A stretch of DNA of 64,000 nucleotides from Acidobacteriota bacterium (lineage in GTDB: Bacteria; Acidobacteriota; CAIWXX01). A program made the translations under genes and the position numbers. Of the stretch, positions 5,029 through 10,885 are shown one piece after another (within the stretch, counting starts at the first letter, position 1; each line of letters begins with the position of its first letter). Where the stretch lies: the NCBI GenBank assembly GCA_040755995.1, contig JBFMAF010000031.1, positions 32,001-96,000 on the forward strand. The letters are read 5' to 3'. Under the pieces are notes generated by a model. That model was not told where the DNA came from. It saw only the letters and a list, made by a program, of their open reading frames with translations, and searched no databases.

Positions 5029-5165
5029 TCATACTCCCCTTAGTGGCCTGTGGAAGCGCTCTTCATAGGCCCGTTTGATCTTGTCGAAGTGATGATAGAG
5101 GACGGCGAAGAAAACAGCCTTCCCGGGATGGCGCGGCCTGTAAGGCGCTGGCTTCGCAGATGAGG
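5029..5165 (-). mobile_element. IS91-family (Y2/HUH) transposase N-terminal fragment
   Basis: YRPRHPGKAVFFAVLYHHFDKIKRAYEERF...LR resembles the N-terminus preceding the Zn-binding domain of IS91-like transposases; truncated. Confidence 0.65.
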
Positions 5166-5486
5166 ATTGTAAAGCGTCCACAGTCCATACATGGACGCAG
5201 TGTTGGGGCCACCCGCGCTTGGTGCCTATCGTCTGCAAATCGCAGGACAGCGCGTGTAACCGGACTGTCATCCCTTTCGCCTAGATACCGAATTGCTGTT
5301 GGGCGGAGTTCCTTCTCCCCTATACTGGGCTCGTGCCCGTACCCGTCCCGCACCCAGCGCCAACTCCCGGAAGGCGAACGCGGACGATCTGCTGGAGACG
5401 CCACAAAGGCACCCAAGGCAAGATGAAAAACGAAAAACGCAGAAGGACTCGACTCTTGGATCCGGCATTTCGCACTTCGCACTGAT

Positions 5487-5516
5487 TTGACTTCCCCGAC
5501 CGAGCGCGGGTATTAT
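5487..5516 (+). promoter_or_regulatory. Sigma70-type promoter of the tes-like gene
   Basis: TTGACT-18-TATTAT; GAGGAGG RBS before GTG 5565. Confidence 0.6.
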
Positions 5517-5564
5517 GCGTCCTCGTCCTTGTAATTCCGTTCCGAGGACAGAGGAGGACAGCCG

Positions 5565-7202
5565 GTGAGCACGCTGAGTTTCTTCAGAAAACGAAAAGTC
5601 GACAGGTTTCAGGTAAGGCAGCCGGAGACGACGTACACAGGCGCGAGGATATACCCCCCTCAGAAGGGCCTGCCCAAGATCACTCAATCTCTATGCCCCG
5701 AGTGCACGTCGGTCATAGATGCGCGGGTCTTCGAGGAAGACGGGGCTGTCTTCATGGAGAAGACGTGCCCGCAACACGGGTACTGCAAGGACCTCATCTT
5801 GTCGGACGCCAAGCTGTACTACAAGATGCAGCAATGGGGATTTGGAGACAACCGCGGCCTCGCGAACCCCGCGGTGCCGAACGCCGCCAGGTGCCCGGAA
5901 CAGTGCGGCCTCTGCGGAATGCACACGTCCCACACCGGTCTGGCCAACATCGATCTGACGAACCGCTGCAACCTGACCTGCCCGGTCTGTTTCGCCAACG
6001 CGAACGCGGCGGGCTACCTGTATGAACCGTCGCTCGAGTACGTCCGCAAGATGCTCACGGCCCTTCGTTCGCTACAGCCCTGCCCCGCGCGCGTGATCCA
6101 GTTCTCAGGCGGAGAGCCCACCATCTACCCGCATTTCTTCGAGGCGTTGAAGATGGCCAGGGAGGTGGGTTTCACACACATCCAGTGCGCAACCAACGGG
6201 CTGGCGTTCAGCGATATCGAGTTCGCGGCGAAGGCCAAGGAATCCGGCCTTCACACCCTCTACCTCCAGCTCGACGGCACCCTCGACACGGTCTACCAGA
6301 GGACGCGAGGCGAGGAGCTGGCAGCCGCCAAGCTCAAGTGCATCGAGAACGTCAAGGCCGTCGGCCTCAAGATCGTCTTCGTCCCCACAATCGTCAAGGG
6401 CGTCAACGATCACCAGATCGGCGACATCATCCGCCTGGCCCTGCAGAACATCGAGTGCATCTCCGGGATCAGCTTCCAGCCCGTGGCGTTCACCGGCCGG
6501 ATCGCGCGGCGCCAGCGCGAGGCCATGCGATTTACCCTGTCAGACCTCGCGCGCTGCGTCGAAGAGCAGACGGGATTGGCAGACCGCTACCGCGATTGGT
6601 ACCCGCTCGCCTTCACATCGCCCTTCAGCCGCCTCGTCAGCGCCATCCGCGGTTCGGAGACCATGACCCTCACCTGCCATCCGAACTGCTCGATGGGCAC
6701 CTACTTCTTCGTAGATCAGGACCGCAACGCGACACCCGTGACGAAGTTCCTGAACTGCGAAGAGATGATGAAGGACATGGACCTGCTTGCGCGCAAGACC
6801 GGCTCCTCTTCATTCAAGTTCTACTCGCAGCTCAAGGCCTGGAACTCGCTGCGGCGGCATTTCAACGAGAAGGAGGCGCCCAAAGGGCTCACCTTCAAGC
6901 GGTTCCTCGCGACGCTCCAGGGCTTCACCGACAAGCGATACGGCCGCGGCGCCATGGACGGCACCTACACGTACAAGACGCTCATGGTAGCGGGTATGCA
7001 CTTCATGGACCACTACAACTACGACGTCGAACGCGTCAAGCGGTGTGTCATTCATTACGCCGCCCCGAACGGGATCGTCTACCCGTTCTGTGCTTACAAC
7101 TCCGGTCCGACCTTCCGCGAGAAGATCGAAAAGCGATTCTCGGTGCCGATAGACATCAAGGAGGTCGCGAGAGGCGAGAGGCTGACAGCGGACGACGCAT
7201 AG
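5565..7202 (+). CDS. tes: Radical SAM enzyme, tetraether lipid synthase Tes/GDGT-MAS (MJ0619-like) homologue
   Basis: Rubredoxin-like CPEC...CPQH; CPEQCGLCGMH cluster motif; CNLTCPVC RS motif; QFSGGEPT; FQPVAFTGR; TCHPNC; MHFMDHYNYDVERVKRCVIHYA; PFCAYN. Confidence 0.85.
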   Translation: MSTLSFFRKRKVDRFQVRQPETTYTGARIYPPQKGLPKITQSLCPECTSVIDARVFEEDGAVFMEKTCPQHGYCKDLILSDAKLYYKMQQWGFGDNRGLANPAVPNAARCPEQCGLCGMHTSHTGLANIDLTNRCNLTCPVCFANANAAGYLYEPSLEYVRKMLTALRSLQPCPARVIQFSGGEPTIYPHFFEALKMAREVGFTHIQCATNGLAFSDIEFAAKAKESGLHTLYLQLDGTLDTVYQRTRGEELAAAKLKCIENVKAVGLKIVFVPTIVKGVNDHQIGDIIRLALQNIECISGISFQPVAFTGRIARRQREAMRFTLSDLARCVEEQTGLADRYRDWYPLAFTSPFSRLVSAIRGSETMTLTCHPNCSMGTYFFVDQDRNATPVTKFLNCEEMMKDMDLLARKTGSSSFKFYSQLKAWNSLRRHFNEKEAPKGLTFKRFLATLQGFTDKRYGRGAMDGTYTYKTLMVAGMHFMDHYNYDVERVKRCVIHYAAPNGIVYPFCAYNSGPTFREKIEKRFSVPIDIKEVARGERLTADDA

Positions 7203-7225: not shown

Positions 7226-7262
7226 AGGCCCTGGCCTTCGTTCCGGAAGGCTGGGGCCTTTT
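7226..7262 (+). terminator. Rho-independent terminator after tes
   Basis: AGGCCCTGGCCTTC-loop-GAAGGCTGGGGCCT followed by a T tract. Confidence 0.75.
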
Positions 7263-7357
7263 GCTTCCGGCCGATCTCCCTTCTTCCAGCTCACCGTGTC
7301 TCCGCGTCCCCGCGTCTTCTTGACTGCCTCGCCCCATCGTTGTAGTCTGCGCCGAAG

Positions 7358-9178: not shown

Positions 9179-10885
9179 ATGAACGAGCAAGAGCAACTCA
9201 CTCGCAAGCTCGCGCCCAGCAAGATGATCGGCCACTATGCCGTCATCGACCAGCTCGGTCGCGGCGGAATGGGCGAGGTCTTCGTCGCAAGAGACACCAA
9301 GCTCGACCGCAAGGTCGCTCTGAAGGTGCTTGCGCACGAGGTGACGGCGGATGCCGAACGGCTGCAGCGGTTCCAGCGCGAGGCCAAGATGCTTGCGGCG
9401 CTCAACCACCCGAACATCGTCACGATCTTCTCGGTGGAGGAGGCCGAGGAGCTTCATCTGCTGGTGATGGAGCTGGTCGAGGGCAAGACACTACGGCAGG
9501 TTATCCCGAGAGGCGGGTTGCCGCTGGCCAAGTTCTTCGACATCGCCTTGCCGCTCGCCGAGGCCCTCAGCGCCGCGCACGAGCGCGGCATCACGCACAG
9601 GGACCTCAAGCCGGAAAACGTAATGGTCACGGACTCCGGCCGCGTGAAGGTGCTCGACTTCGGCCTGGCCAAGGTCTCCCACGGCCACGCCTATTCGGAA
9701 TCCACTCACGAGAGCTCCACCAAGGCAGTCACACAGCTGGGGGTGATCCTGGGCACAGTGCCCTATATGTCGCCCGAACAGGCGCAGGGCAAGCCGGTCG
9801 ATCACCGGTCCGACATCTTCTCGCTCGGCATCGTGCTATACGAGATGCTCGCAGGCGAGAGGCCGTTCAAGGGCGAGACCGTCTCCGACCTGATCGCCTC
9901 GATCCTGCGCGATACGCCCGGATCGGTCAGCAGCCTCCGCACCGGCGTGCCGCGGGAACTGGGAAGGATCGTCCGCCACTGCCTGGAGAAGAATCCGCAA
10001 GACCGCATTCAGTCCGCGCTCGACCTGCACATCCAGCTGAAGGGCCTCTGGAAGGATCTCGAGCTGGAGCGCGCGATCACAAGCGGCAAGCGCCGCTACT
10101 CGACCACCCGGCGAAGGCCTCTTATCCCGGTCAACCTCTTCGGCTGGCTCGTCAATACACGATGGGGCCTGACTGCGCTCCTCGCCGGCGTCCTGGCGTT
10201 CAATTACCTGGAGACCTCGACCGAGACGGCGCTCAAGGCAAGCTACGGCTGGGGAATGGACCTCGGTTATCACCTCGCGCGAAGCGCCCACTGGTTCGAA
10301 TGGATGTTCAGCTTCGATCGGCACGACGTGACCAACACACTGGCCGTCTATGGCTACTCGATCTCGTACTTCATGCTCTTTCCGGTTCTCGTGATCCTCG
10401 TCGGTCTCGCGCTTGCGCGCCGCGAGGACCTGGCGCCGTATCGCGTTTTCGCGATCGCAATCAGCCTAACGTACGCTGTCAGCCTGCCGTTCTTTCTCCT
10501 GTTCCCGGTGCCCGAACGATGGTCATTCCCCGACGCCGAAGCAGTGCTGCTCTCGGATCTGTGGACATCCAAGCTGATCGAGATGTTTCGGCCGATCAGC
10601 GGACTGGACAACTGCTTCCCGAGCTTCCACGTCGCGACAACCGTTGACATGGTCCTCGCCTCATACCTCTTCCGGCTCCGCACCCGCTCGACCGTCCTGA
10701 TCCTCGGCCTGACCATCATCCTCTCGACCTTTGTCCTCGGCATCCACTGGCTGGTGGACATCGTTGCCGGCGTAGCGACGGGCGTTATCAGCATTGCCAT
10801 CGCGATGCGCGCCGACCGGTCGCTCGAACGGCCGATCGGCAGTGCCGGCAGCGGTGCACTCGCAGAATCACAGCAGTCCGCGTAG
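9179..10885 (+). CDS. Hanks-type Ser/Thr kinase fused to a PAP2 (AUR1/IPC-synthase-like) membrane domain
   Basis: Kinase: GRGGMGEV, VALK, HRDLKPEN, DFG, YMSPE, DIFSLG. C-terminus: about 6 TM with LFPVPERW, NCFPSFH and STFVLGIHWLVDIVAG. Confidence 0.9.
   Translation: MNEQEQLTRKLAPSKMIGHYAVIDQLGRGGMGEVFVARDTKLDRKVALKVLAHEVTADAERLQRFQREAKMLAALNHPNIVTIFSVEEAEELHLLVMELVEGKTLRQVIPRGGLPLAKFFDIALPLAEALSAAHERGITHRDLKPENVMVTDSGRVKVLDFGLAKVSHGHAYSESTHESSTKAVTQLGVILGTVPYMSPEQAQGKPVDHRSDIFSLGIVLYEMLAGERPFKGETVSDLIASILRDTPGSVSSLRTGVPRELGRIVRHCLEKNPQDRIQSALDLHIQLKGLWKDLELERAITSGKRRYSTTRRRPLIPVNLFGWLVNTRWGLTALLAGVLAFNYLETSTETALKASYGWGMDLGYHLARSAHWFEWMFSFDRHDVTNTLAVYGYSISYFMLFPVLVILVGLALARREDLAPYRVFAIAISLTYAVSLPFFLLFPVPERWSFPDAEAVLLSDLWTSKLIEMFRPISGLDNCFPSFHVATTVDMVLASYLFRLRTRSTVLILGLTIILSTFVLGIHWLVDIVAGVATGVISIAIAMRADRSLERPIGSAGSGALAESQQSA

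What the first reader, a model, noticed from the sequence alone, without database searches (positions are those of the whole stretch)
5565..7202. Full-length bacterial Tes/GDGT-MAS homologue: candidate membrane-spanning (brGDGT) lipid synthase
Seen: all four metal-site motif sets (CPEC/CPQH; CPxxCGLCxxH; CxxxCxxC; HPNC, RC and PFC with MHFMD), plus its own promoter and terminator. Established: archaeal Tes (MJ0619 family) forms the C-C bonds of GDGT tetraethers, and bacterial homologues, notably in Acidobacteriota, are proposed for branched GDGT synthesis, whose producers are mostly unidentified. Inference: this organism is a candidate producer of membrane-spanning lipids. Automated annotation would likely call it a generic radical SAM or pterin methyltransferase.
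Basis: partly seen in the sequence, partly recalled or inferred. Interest (0 to 1): 0.72.

Follow-up and report, generated by a model that had tools for sequence, protein, structure and literature searches.

The report
Acidobacterial tetraether synthase, reductase partner
A rare, uncultured Acidobacterium carries an intact copy of the enzyme archaea use to weld two membrane-lipid tails together, and it likely makes the membrane-spanning lipids used as climate proxies together with one particular lipid reductase that is inherited alongside it, but such copies have been catalogued since 2022 and this one is untested.

Summary
Observation confirmed. The 545-aa ORF passes the NCBIfam Tes cut-off (563 vs 450 bits), superposes on GDGT-MAS (7TOM, Z 46.9, rmsd 2.4, 41% identity) and keeps every metal ligand plus Met439 and Tyr459. 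Promoter and terminator hold up. The host is a rare Acidobacteriota lineage; the gene groups with Terriglobia/Solibacteraceae Tes. That is a known kind: 456 bacterial homologues were listed in 2022, current annotation names it Tes, and this scan noted such genes and tes-plsA-plsR operons before on other DNA. What is added: among 201 phylum genomes, 18 of 21 with this 'core' Tes carry an orthologue of one split PlsA/PlsR (Ger-type) reductase that this genome also has; only 2 of the other 180 do. The genes are adjacent in one family. The PlsAR paralogue type proposed in print for Solibacter appears to be another one, and overlaps core Tes in 1 of 10. Against: 11 further Tes genomes of one family lack the partner, most iso-diabolic-acid makers lack stringent Tes hits, and no bacterial Tes has been assayed in the papers I could read. 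Verdict: likely a tail-coupling synthase for ether-linked brGDGT-type lipids; new member of a known kind.

The parts
5487..5516 (+). sigma-70-type promoter candidate, TTGACT-18-TATTAT
   Evidence: 10 of 12 matches; 1 found vs 1.2 expected; same -35 and spacing with TATCCT upstream of tes in family relative G002
5552..5557 (+). ribosome-binding site AGGAGG, 7 nt before the GTG
   Evidence: sequence
5565..7202 (+). tes: 545-aa Tes/GDGT-MAS family radical SAM enzyme, stand-alone gene
5694..5777 (+). rubredoxin-like iron site C44, C47, C68, H71 (MJ0619 C9, C12, C33, H36)
   Evidence: Pfam PF23545 residues 37-79
5892..5924 (+). N-terminal auxiliary 4Fe-4S site C110, C114, C117, H120 (MJ0619 C73, C77, C80 and the conserved His)
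   Evidence: 27 of 27 core Tes keep it, 0 of 6 long forms do
5967..5990 (+). radical SAM motif C135, C139, C142
6687..7091 (+). C-terminal catalytic 4Fe-4S site: C375, M478 (Met439), C494, C509, and Y498 (Tyr459)
   Evidence: M478 and Y498 by alignment to 7TOL and PMC9433317; the three Cys are assigned as ligands by inference from invariance in 85 of 85 rows
7226..7267 (+). intrinsic terminator candidate, 14-bp stem and short U tail

Best explanation
This gene encodes an intact Tes/GDGT-MAS-family radical SAM enzyme that likely joins the terminal carbons of two bacterial lipid tails to make membrane-spanning lipids, probably ether-linked brGDGT-type ones made with a co-inherited PlsA/PlsR reductase. 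Shown here: family membership, fold, all four metal sites, SAM-binding residues, native codon use, and co-inheritance with the reductase. From the archaeal enzyme (PMC9433317, PMC13459092): the SAM radical takes a hydrogen from a terminal methyl, the carbon radical is parked on a sulfur of the C-terminal cluster, and a second SAM radical makes the second carbon radical that closes the C-C bond. Inferred: the substrate is a bacterial glycerolipid with iso-branched (iso-C15-type) chains, since no GGGP-synthase family gene was found; two rounds would give a tetraether or tetraester, one round a trialkyl intermediate. Inferred: the split reductase on contig C43 (1035-aa PlsA-like and about 430-aa PlsR-like) turns the ester bonds into ethers, before or after coupling.
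For: NF045702 563 bits > 450. AF2 pLDDT 91, pTM 0.92; 7TOM TM 0.84/0.91, Z 46.9, 489 residues, next fold Z 19.8. 16 key sites kept in 27 of 27 core bacterial and 21 of 21 Asgard sequences. Tree: nested with SH-aLRT 100 among Terriglobia/Bryobacteraceae/Solibacteraceae Tes. S. usitatus, picked by its Tes homologue, makes brGDGTs (bioRxiv 2022.04.07.487437, PMC10087280; passages). Tes plus Ger coincided with brGDGTs and Tes alone with tetraesters (Chen 2025 as cited in PMC13023045). Co-inheritance: 18 of 21 core-Tes genomes have the PlsA orthologue, 2 of 180 others do, across 8 families; 39 of 47 named Terriglobia MAGs with this Tes have it; tes-plsA-plsR in tandem in G065 and G202; a CDP-alcohol phosphatidyltransferase gene directly upstream of tes in 3 genomes. 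Controls do not track core Tes: NrdD 5 of 21, distant DUF2229 proteins 2 of 21, the 1185-aa PlsA type 1 of 21, another radical SAM 3 of 21. No PF01884 match in a 99.8% complete genome.
Against: No bacterial Tes had been shown active in the papers I read (PMC11868695; review PMC13459092 sections 2.1-2.2). Only 3 of 14 iso-diabolic-acid-producing acidobacteria had a stringent Tes hit (PMC13159169). 11 genomes of family f19 pass the Tes cut-off but have no PlsA orthologue, so over all Tes the overlap is 18 of 32; 8 of 47 named MAGs lack it. In this genome tes has no lipid gene beside it and the reductase is on another contig; no neighbour recurs in more than 23 of 92 loci. Identity to MJ0619 is only 40-41%, and bacterial copies form their own clade apart from the labelled archaeal one. 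The lipid tunnel was not measured. Supply of iso-C15 chains was not established. Kin are not independent, so the Fisher value overstates.
Confidence: 0.65

Rival explanations
1. It couples tails, but the product is not an ether brGDGT: ester-linked tetraesters or iso-diabolic acid lipids, or a ring closed within one lipid (macrocyclic diether or diester). The reductase is co-inherited for a separate or parallel use.
For: Archaeal Tes makes the macrocycle as well as GDGT and binds ester phospholipids (PMC9433317). K. versatilis, with Tes and no Ger, makes tetraesters. 11 f19 genomes and 8 of 47 Terriglobia MAGs have Tes without the orthologue.
Against: This genome has the reductase pair and two further fused Ger-type genes; the operon in G065 and G202 ties the two steps together.
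Confidence: 0.17
2. The widespread long paralogue (600-800 aa, no N-terminal cluster) or an unknown enzyme makes the membrane-spanning backbone in Acidobacteriota, and core Tes does other radical chemistry on a lipid tail.
For: The long form is far commoner than core Tes: 122 of 201 genomes have some match but only 32 pass the cut-off. Iso-diabolic acid is made by most strains of subdivisions 1, 3, 4 and 6. S. usitatus has both types and the authors could not choose.
Against: Core Tes is the closer match to the proven enzyme (431 vs 215 bits against 7TOL) and keeps all four metal sites, which the long form does not. This genome has no long form.
Confidence: 0.12
3. It is a class D methyltransferase acting on a pterin or another small polar molecule, as older database labels say.
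For: Some relatives carry the label 7,8-dihydro-6-hydroxymethylpterin dimethyltransferase.
Against: That label comes from the first annotation of MJ0619, which the structure paper could not corroborate and rejected (PMC9433317). The model matches the lipid-bound structure over its whole length and amphipathic pocket helices are kept.
Confidence: 0.03
4. The bacterium makes archaeal-type isoprenoid GDGT, or the gene is an archaeal contaminant or recent import.
For: The only proven substrates of the family are phytanyl lipids.
Against: No PcrB/GGGP-synthase match; codon score at the 81st percentile of the genome, GC3 0.85; a family relative has a 73-75% identical copy that groups with it; best 80 GTDB relatives are bacterial.
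Confidence: 0.02

Closest known systems
Tes / GDGT-MAS of Methanocaldococcus jannaschii (MJ0619; PDB 7TOL, 7TOM; NCBIfam NF045702)
   Same: Four-domain layout, all metal ligands, Met439 and Tyr459 equivalents, SAM contacts (F143, G183, Y233, D237, R248, Q305, T310, R312), fold.
   Different: 40-41% identity; bacterial host with no GGGP-synthase match; 35-residue N-terminal arm; a G-R loop at 456-470 in place of an archaeal helix; activity untested.
Tes homologues of Solibacter usitatus (Acid_5929) and Koribacter versatilis, the top bacterial hits of Zeng et al. 2022 (PMC8941075)
   Same: Same clade by inference: named Solibacteraceae, Bryobacteraceae and Terriglobales MAG proteins are 62-70% identical and share a 100%-supported branch. 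The two cultured strains' own sequences were not in hand.
   Different: Host is a rare lineage outside the well-sampled groups (RpoB 79-82% to two kin, then 53-55%), uncultured, lipids unknown; it has no long paralogue.
Ger of Thermotoga maritima and PlsA/PlsR of Clostridium perfringens (PMC13159169; PMC10087280)
   Same: The partner on contig C43 has the BBD layout (two PF01869, one PF09989) and a following PlsR-like gene that matches the C-terminal third of fused Ger-type proteins.
   Different: Split in two genes, about 1030 + 430 aa; not compared with the proven enzymes' sequences; differs from the 1185 + 586 aa type, whose Pfam coordinates match those drawn for S. usitatus Acid_0922.
Mss, membrane-spanning lipid synthase of Thermoanaerobacter and Thermotoga (PMC13159169)
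   Same: Radical SAM tail-to-tail coupling of fatty acyl chains; the only bacterial enzyme shown to do it.
   Different: Only remotely related to Tes per that paper; not found in the acidobacterial isolates it screened; I had no profile to test this genome.

Membership tests
Tes / GDGT-MAS | Score above the NF045702 equivalog cut-off, and above the TrsS sister model | tested here: met
   563 vs 450 bits; TrsS 335 vs 490
Tes / GDGT-MAS | Rubredoxin-like C-x2-C-x20-C-x2-H site | tested here: met
   C44, C47, C68, H71
Tes / GDGT-MAS | N-terminal 4Fe-4S site, three Cys and one His | tested here: met
   C110, C114, C117, H120
Tes / GDGT-MAS | Radical SAM motif and 5'-deoxyadenosine/methionine contacts | tested here: met
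   C135/C139/C142; F106, G145, R210, Q268 equivalents identical, S271 is A308, a backbone contact
Tes / GDGT-MAS | C-terminal 4Fe-4S site, three Cys and labile Met439; conserved Tyr459 | tested here: met
   M478, Y498 by alignment; C375, C494, C509 invariant in 85 rows; the Cys numbers were not seen in the paper, so their role is inferred
Tes / GDGT-MAS | Whole-chain fold match to 7TOL/7TOM | tested here: met
   TM 0.84/0.91, Z 46.9, rmsd 2.4 over 489 residues
Tes / GDGT-MAS | Two hydrophobic lipid pockets with a narrow tunnel to the 5'-carbon | tested here: inconclusive
   Amphipathic helices kept; 47 of 61 hydrophobic core columns in 340-511 are also hydrophobic in Asgard Tes.
Tes / GDGT-MAS | Groups with Tes rather than with TrsS-like or short paralogues | tested here: met
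   Inside the 88-row branch (SH-aLRT 95) that holds the Thorarchaeota Tes P0140, apart from the 450-480 aa rows and the C10 pair; within it in a separate 64-row clade whose labelled rows are all bacterial. MJ0619 itself was not in the tree.
Tes / GDGT-MAS | Catalyses sp3-sp3 C-C coupling of lipid tails | not testable with these tools
   needs expression or assay
brGDGT pathway as proposed for S. usitatus (PlsAR or Ger + Tes + GrsA/B) | Ester-to-ether reductase with BBD domains in the genome | tested here: met
   three PF09989 genes; C43 pair tracks Tes
brGDGT pathway as proposed for S. usitatus (PlsAR or Ger + Tes + GrsA/B) | iso-C15 fatty acid supply | tested here: inconclusive
   one E1/E2/E3 2-oxoacid dehydrogenase cluster scores as pyruvate-type just under cut-off; FabH present; specificity unknown
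brGDGT pathway as proposed for S. usitatus (PlsAR or Ger + Tes + GrsA/B) | GrsA/B-like ring synthase | tested here: inconclusive
   C13:126975-128687 resembles a Nitrososphaerota radical SAM cluster by predicted structure (TM 0.82) but no Grs reference was available; overlaps core Tes in 3 of 21
brGDGT pathway as proposed for S. usitatus (PlsAR or Ger + Tes + GrsA/B) | brGDGTs detected in the organism | not testable with these tools
   uncultured
Archaeal isoprenoid GDGT pathway | GGGP synthase (PF01884) in the genome | tested here: not met
   0 matches in G000, 99.84% complete
Mss | Homology to the T. ethanolicus or T. maritima enzyme | not testable with these tools
   no Mss-named model appeared in the NCBIfam scan of 54 proteins and no reference sequence was in hand

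The most novel reading that the evidence does not exclude
Core Tes and one specific split PlsA/PlsR reductase (about 1030 + 430 aa) form the minimal, co-inherited enzyme set for ether-linked brGDGT backbones in Acidobacteriota. The pair marks producers genome by genome, separates them from Tes-only tetraester makers, extends producers to deep lineages such as this one, and points to a different reductase paralogue from the one proposed in print for Solibacter usitatus.
Probability: 0.4. Interest if true: 0.62.

Novelty: new member of a known kind. Interest (0 to 1): 0.36.

Why it matters
brGDGTs are widely used temperature and pH proxies, and the enzymes and most producers are unproven. This gene alone adds one more candidate to hundreds. 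The useful part is the partner: it names which of several look-alike reductases travels with Tes, gives a three-gene construct that can be tested in a laboratory host, and gives a genomic rule (Tes plus this reductase means ether lipids, Tes alone means esters) that can be checked against cultured strains.

Tried and rejected
16S search in the genome: none assembled. Local gene context: neighbours are a phosphonate-binding-type protein, a kinase-PAP2 fusion and a DegT aminotransferase, none lipid-related or conserved. Plasmid search: 7 records, all 27-30% distant forms. Cluster look-up of ten representatives gave almost no names. NCBIfam scan of 54 proteins (selected radical SAM genes and their neighbours; not all 97 motif-bearing ORFs) gave no model named Mss, Grs or Gms; that is no evidence of absence. 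Sequencing runs: none was listed. Anaerobic lifestyle as the cause of co-occurrence: NrdD overlaps core Tes in 5 of 21, and this genome has a COX1 gene and no NrdD match; one marker only. The C13 radical SAM as a pathway member: does not track Tes; no solved relative. The C23 radical SAM as Mss: atlas names uninformative. A phylum search with PlsR failed on coordinates and was not repeated, so PlsR was checked only in fetched loci. No complex prediction was run, as no binding is claimed. Six literature searches found no assay of a bacterial Tes and no phylum-wide Tes-reductase paralogue analysis; subscription journals are mostly outside the library, and Chen et al. 2025 (doi 10.1016/j.gca.2025.05.019) was seen only as cited by others and may already cover part of this.

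Full report
Observation. The ORF runs 5565-7202 on the + strand, 545 aa, with AGGAGG 7 nt before a GTG. It has PF23545 and PF04055 and passes the NCBIfam Tes equivalog at 563 bits against 450, while the sister model TrsS fails at 335 against 490. The best solved relative is GDGT-MAS, E 5.7e-128 over residues 30-530. Counting along that alignment, the rubredoxin site, the N-terminal cluster, the SAM motif, the adenosine contacts, Met439 and Tyr459 named in PMC9433317 (sections read) all have identical counterparts except Ser271 (Ala308, a backbone contact). C375, C494 and C509 are invariant in 85 rows and are taken as the C-terminal cluster ligands by inference. The AlphaFold model (pLDDT 91.4, pTM 0.92) matches 7TOM with TM 0.84/0.91 and Z 46.9, rmsd 2.4 over 489 residues, next fold Z 19.8. 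The promoter match is at chance level in the scan but is kept in the family relative G002. The terminator stem folds at z -3.2. The gene stands alone.

Host and clade. The genome is 7.7 Mb, about 62-63% GC, 99.84% complete. RpoB has two kin at 79-82%, one labelled Acidobacteria, then falls to 53-55% with hits labelled Acidobacteria and Vicinamibacterales; the relatives search jumps from family to phylum. So it is a rare Acidobacteriota lineage. The gene looks native (codon score 81st percentile, GC3 0.85). Homologues are common: 6090 at E <= 1e-30 among 7999 scored; 366 in GTDB, the best 80 at 62-70% and titled as Acidobacteriota except one labelled Castellaniella. In a 98-row tree (quick IQ-TREE, SH-aLRT only) it forms a family branch with G002 (100) inside a branch with Terriglobia, Bryobacteraceae and Solibacteraceae Tes (100), inside a 64-row clade (100) that excludes the Thorarchaeota Tes P0140. 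Most other deep rows are unlabelled and MJ0619 was not in the tree. The genome has three more distant paralogues, all in fatty-acid-synthase-type clusters: C33 (40%, no N-terminal cluster) and a tandem pair on C10.

The partner. The genome has three Ger/PlsA-type genes with the BBD layout. One, C43:111097-114201, is followed by a PlsR-like ORF that matches the C-terminal third of the fused ones. In 201 phylum genomes at least 90% complete, 32 pass the Tes cut-off: 20 score 551-619 bits, one (G079) is cut by a contig end and groups with them, and 11 of family f19 score 456-512 and form their own branch. I call the 21 'core'; the split was made on the score break and the tree, after first seeing the pattern in 41 genomes. 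Orthologues of the C43 PlsA (53-74%, above 1180 bits, next 647) occur in 20 genomes: 18 with core Tes, 2 without (G001, G051); 3 core genomes lack it (G073, G109, G115) and none of the 11 f19 genomes has it. The 18 span 8 families; in family f27 only 1 of 16 genomes has either gene, and it has both. The orthologues form a branch with support 100, and family groups agree with the Tes tree, so much of this is shared descent and the Fisher value (1e-20) overstates. In a second set, 47 of the 80 named MAGs, chosen for longer loci and all with this Tes, 39 have the orthologue; the 8 without are seven Terriglobales and one Terracidiphilus MAG, completeness not given. In G065 and G202 (family f41) tes, plsA and plsR lie in tandem; in G013, G030 and G050 a CDP-alcohol phosphatidyltransferase gene precedes tes. 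Controls: NrdD 5 of 21, 15 genomes with distant DUF2229 proteins 2 of 21, the C13 radical SAM 3 of 21. A second PlsA type (1185 aa, with a 586-aa PlsR upstream) has PF01869 at 353-621 and PF09989 at 771-1003, the numbers printed in Fig. S13 of PMC10087280 beside S. usitatus Acid_0922 (the PDF text is scrambled, so the assignment is inferred). That type is in 10 of 201 genomes, one with core Tes, and not in G000. Whether S. usitatus also has the 1030-aa type I could not check. The counts of 41 and 201 include the unpublished genome G025 as a negative for core Tes and for the orthologue.

Mechanism. By analogy with the archaeal enzyme (PMC9433317; review PMC13459092 section 2.1), two SAM-derived radicals activate two terminal carbons, the first parked on the C-terminal cluster. 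No GGGP-synthase family gene was found, so the substrate is inferred to be a bacterial glycerolipid; iso-branched tails resemble phytanyl ends, as argued in PMC8941075. With the reductase the product would be a brGDGT-type ether; the order of the two steps is open. iso-C15 supply, ring synthase and Mss were not settled. The pocket was tested only through helix patterns.

Against. No assay of a bacterial Tes appears in what I read (PMC11868695 passages). Only 3 of 14 iso-diabolic-acid makers had a stringent Tes hit (PMC13159169 section 9 part 1), and a long paralogue without the N-terminal cluster is much commoner than core Tes. f19 shows Tes can persist without the partner.

What is known. Zeng et al. 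listed 456 bacterial homologues and proposed the brGDGT role (passages). Chen et al. found a brGDGT producer by its Tes homologue (passages). Halamka et al. proposed PlsAR + Tes + GrsA/B (passages and supplement part 2). Chen et al. 2025 linked Tes + Ger to ethers and Tes alone to tetraesters (not read; cited in PMC13023045 and PMC13274423). Table S21 of PMC13159169 lists two Tes hits and no Ger for K. versatilis (rows seen). PMC12042123 was searched and had nothing on bacterial Tes. Earlier notes of this scan describe stand-alone Tes genes and tes-plsA-plsR operons in other genomes and the C33 and C10 paralogues in this one; I saw them after my own co-occurrence result.

Verdict. The observation and the reading stand. 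The gene is a new member of a catalogued, automatically named family, so interest is moderate-low (0.36). The paralogue-specific co-inheritance is the part worth a specialist's time; six searches did not find it in print, but the library lacks most geochemistry journals.

Noticed in passing
G000:C33:9747-11318 (-), L001:6745-8319, cluster about C33:3300-27000: Tes-like paralogue (40% identity, 342 bits, below cut-off) without the N-terminal cluster, in a cluster with FabF/FabG/FabH-like genes, several B12 radical SAM genes, an acyltransferase and a LolA-like protein. Already noted by the scan.
   Followed up: partly
G000:C10:263659-266753 (+), L002: Tandem pair of distant Tes/TrsS-like genes (26-28%) inside a FabZ/FabF/FabG cluster with two more radical SAM genes. 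Already noted by the scan.
   Followed up: partly
G000:C11:19433-23692 (-) and C32:195450-199682 (-): Two fused Ger-type genes of 1420 and 1411 aa, distant from the Tes-tracking orthologue (33-36%).
   Followed up: partly
L008, L009, L028, L145: A long Tes paralogue (600-800 aa; no N-terminal cluster; MWFQD and PY motifs) is the commonest form in the phylum and lies within a few kb of core tes in some Terriglobia. It is a candidate for iso-diabolic acid synthesis.
   Followed up: partly
L150, L151, L152 (family f19): The f19 Tes branch lacks the PlsA orthologue and instead has a PHP-domain gene next to tes in 3 of 4 loci fetched, and a B12-binding gene in one.
   Followed up: no
L156, L157, L158, L159, L160, L161, L163, L164: A GAF-GAF sigma-54 activator gene lies divergently upstream of plsA in 8 loci of three families: a possible regulator of the ether step.
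   Followed up: no
G000:C13:126975-131035, L101: 571-aa radical SAM whose Atlas model resembles a Nitrososphaerota cluster (TM 0.82), beside a second radical SAM; possible GrsA/B-like pair, in 20 of 201 genomes.
   Followed up: partly
window 9179-10885 (+): Ser/Thr kinase fused to a C-terminal PAP2-family membrane domain, downstream of a phosphonate-binding-type protein.
   Followed up: no
window 5029-5271 (-): Short ORF whose end recalls the start of IS91-type transposases (resemblance from memory; no Pfam hit); possibly a remnant upstream of tes.
   Followed up: no
G000:C34:97965-103251, L112: Four tandem MiaB/RimO-like methylthiotransferase genes, all below family cut-offs.
   Followed up: no
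G000:C11:6574-7533 and C10:204498-205460: Two recA genes, both above cut-off.
   Followed up: no
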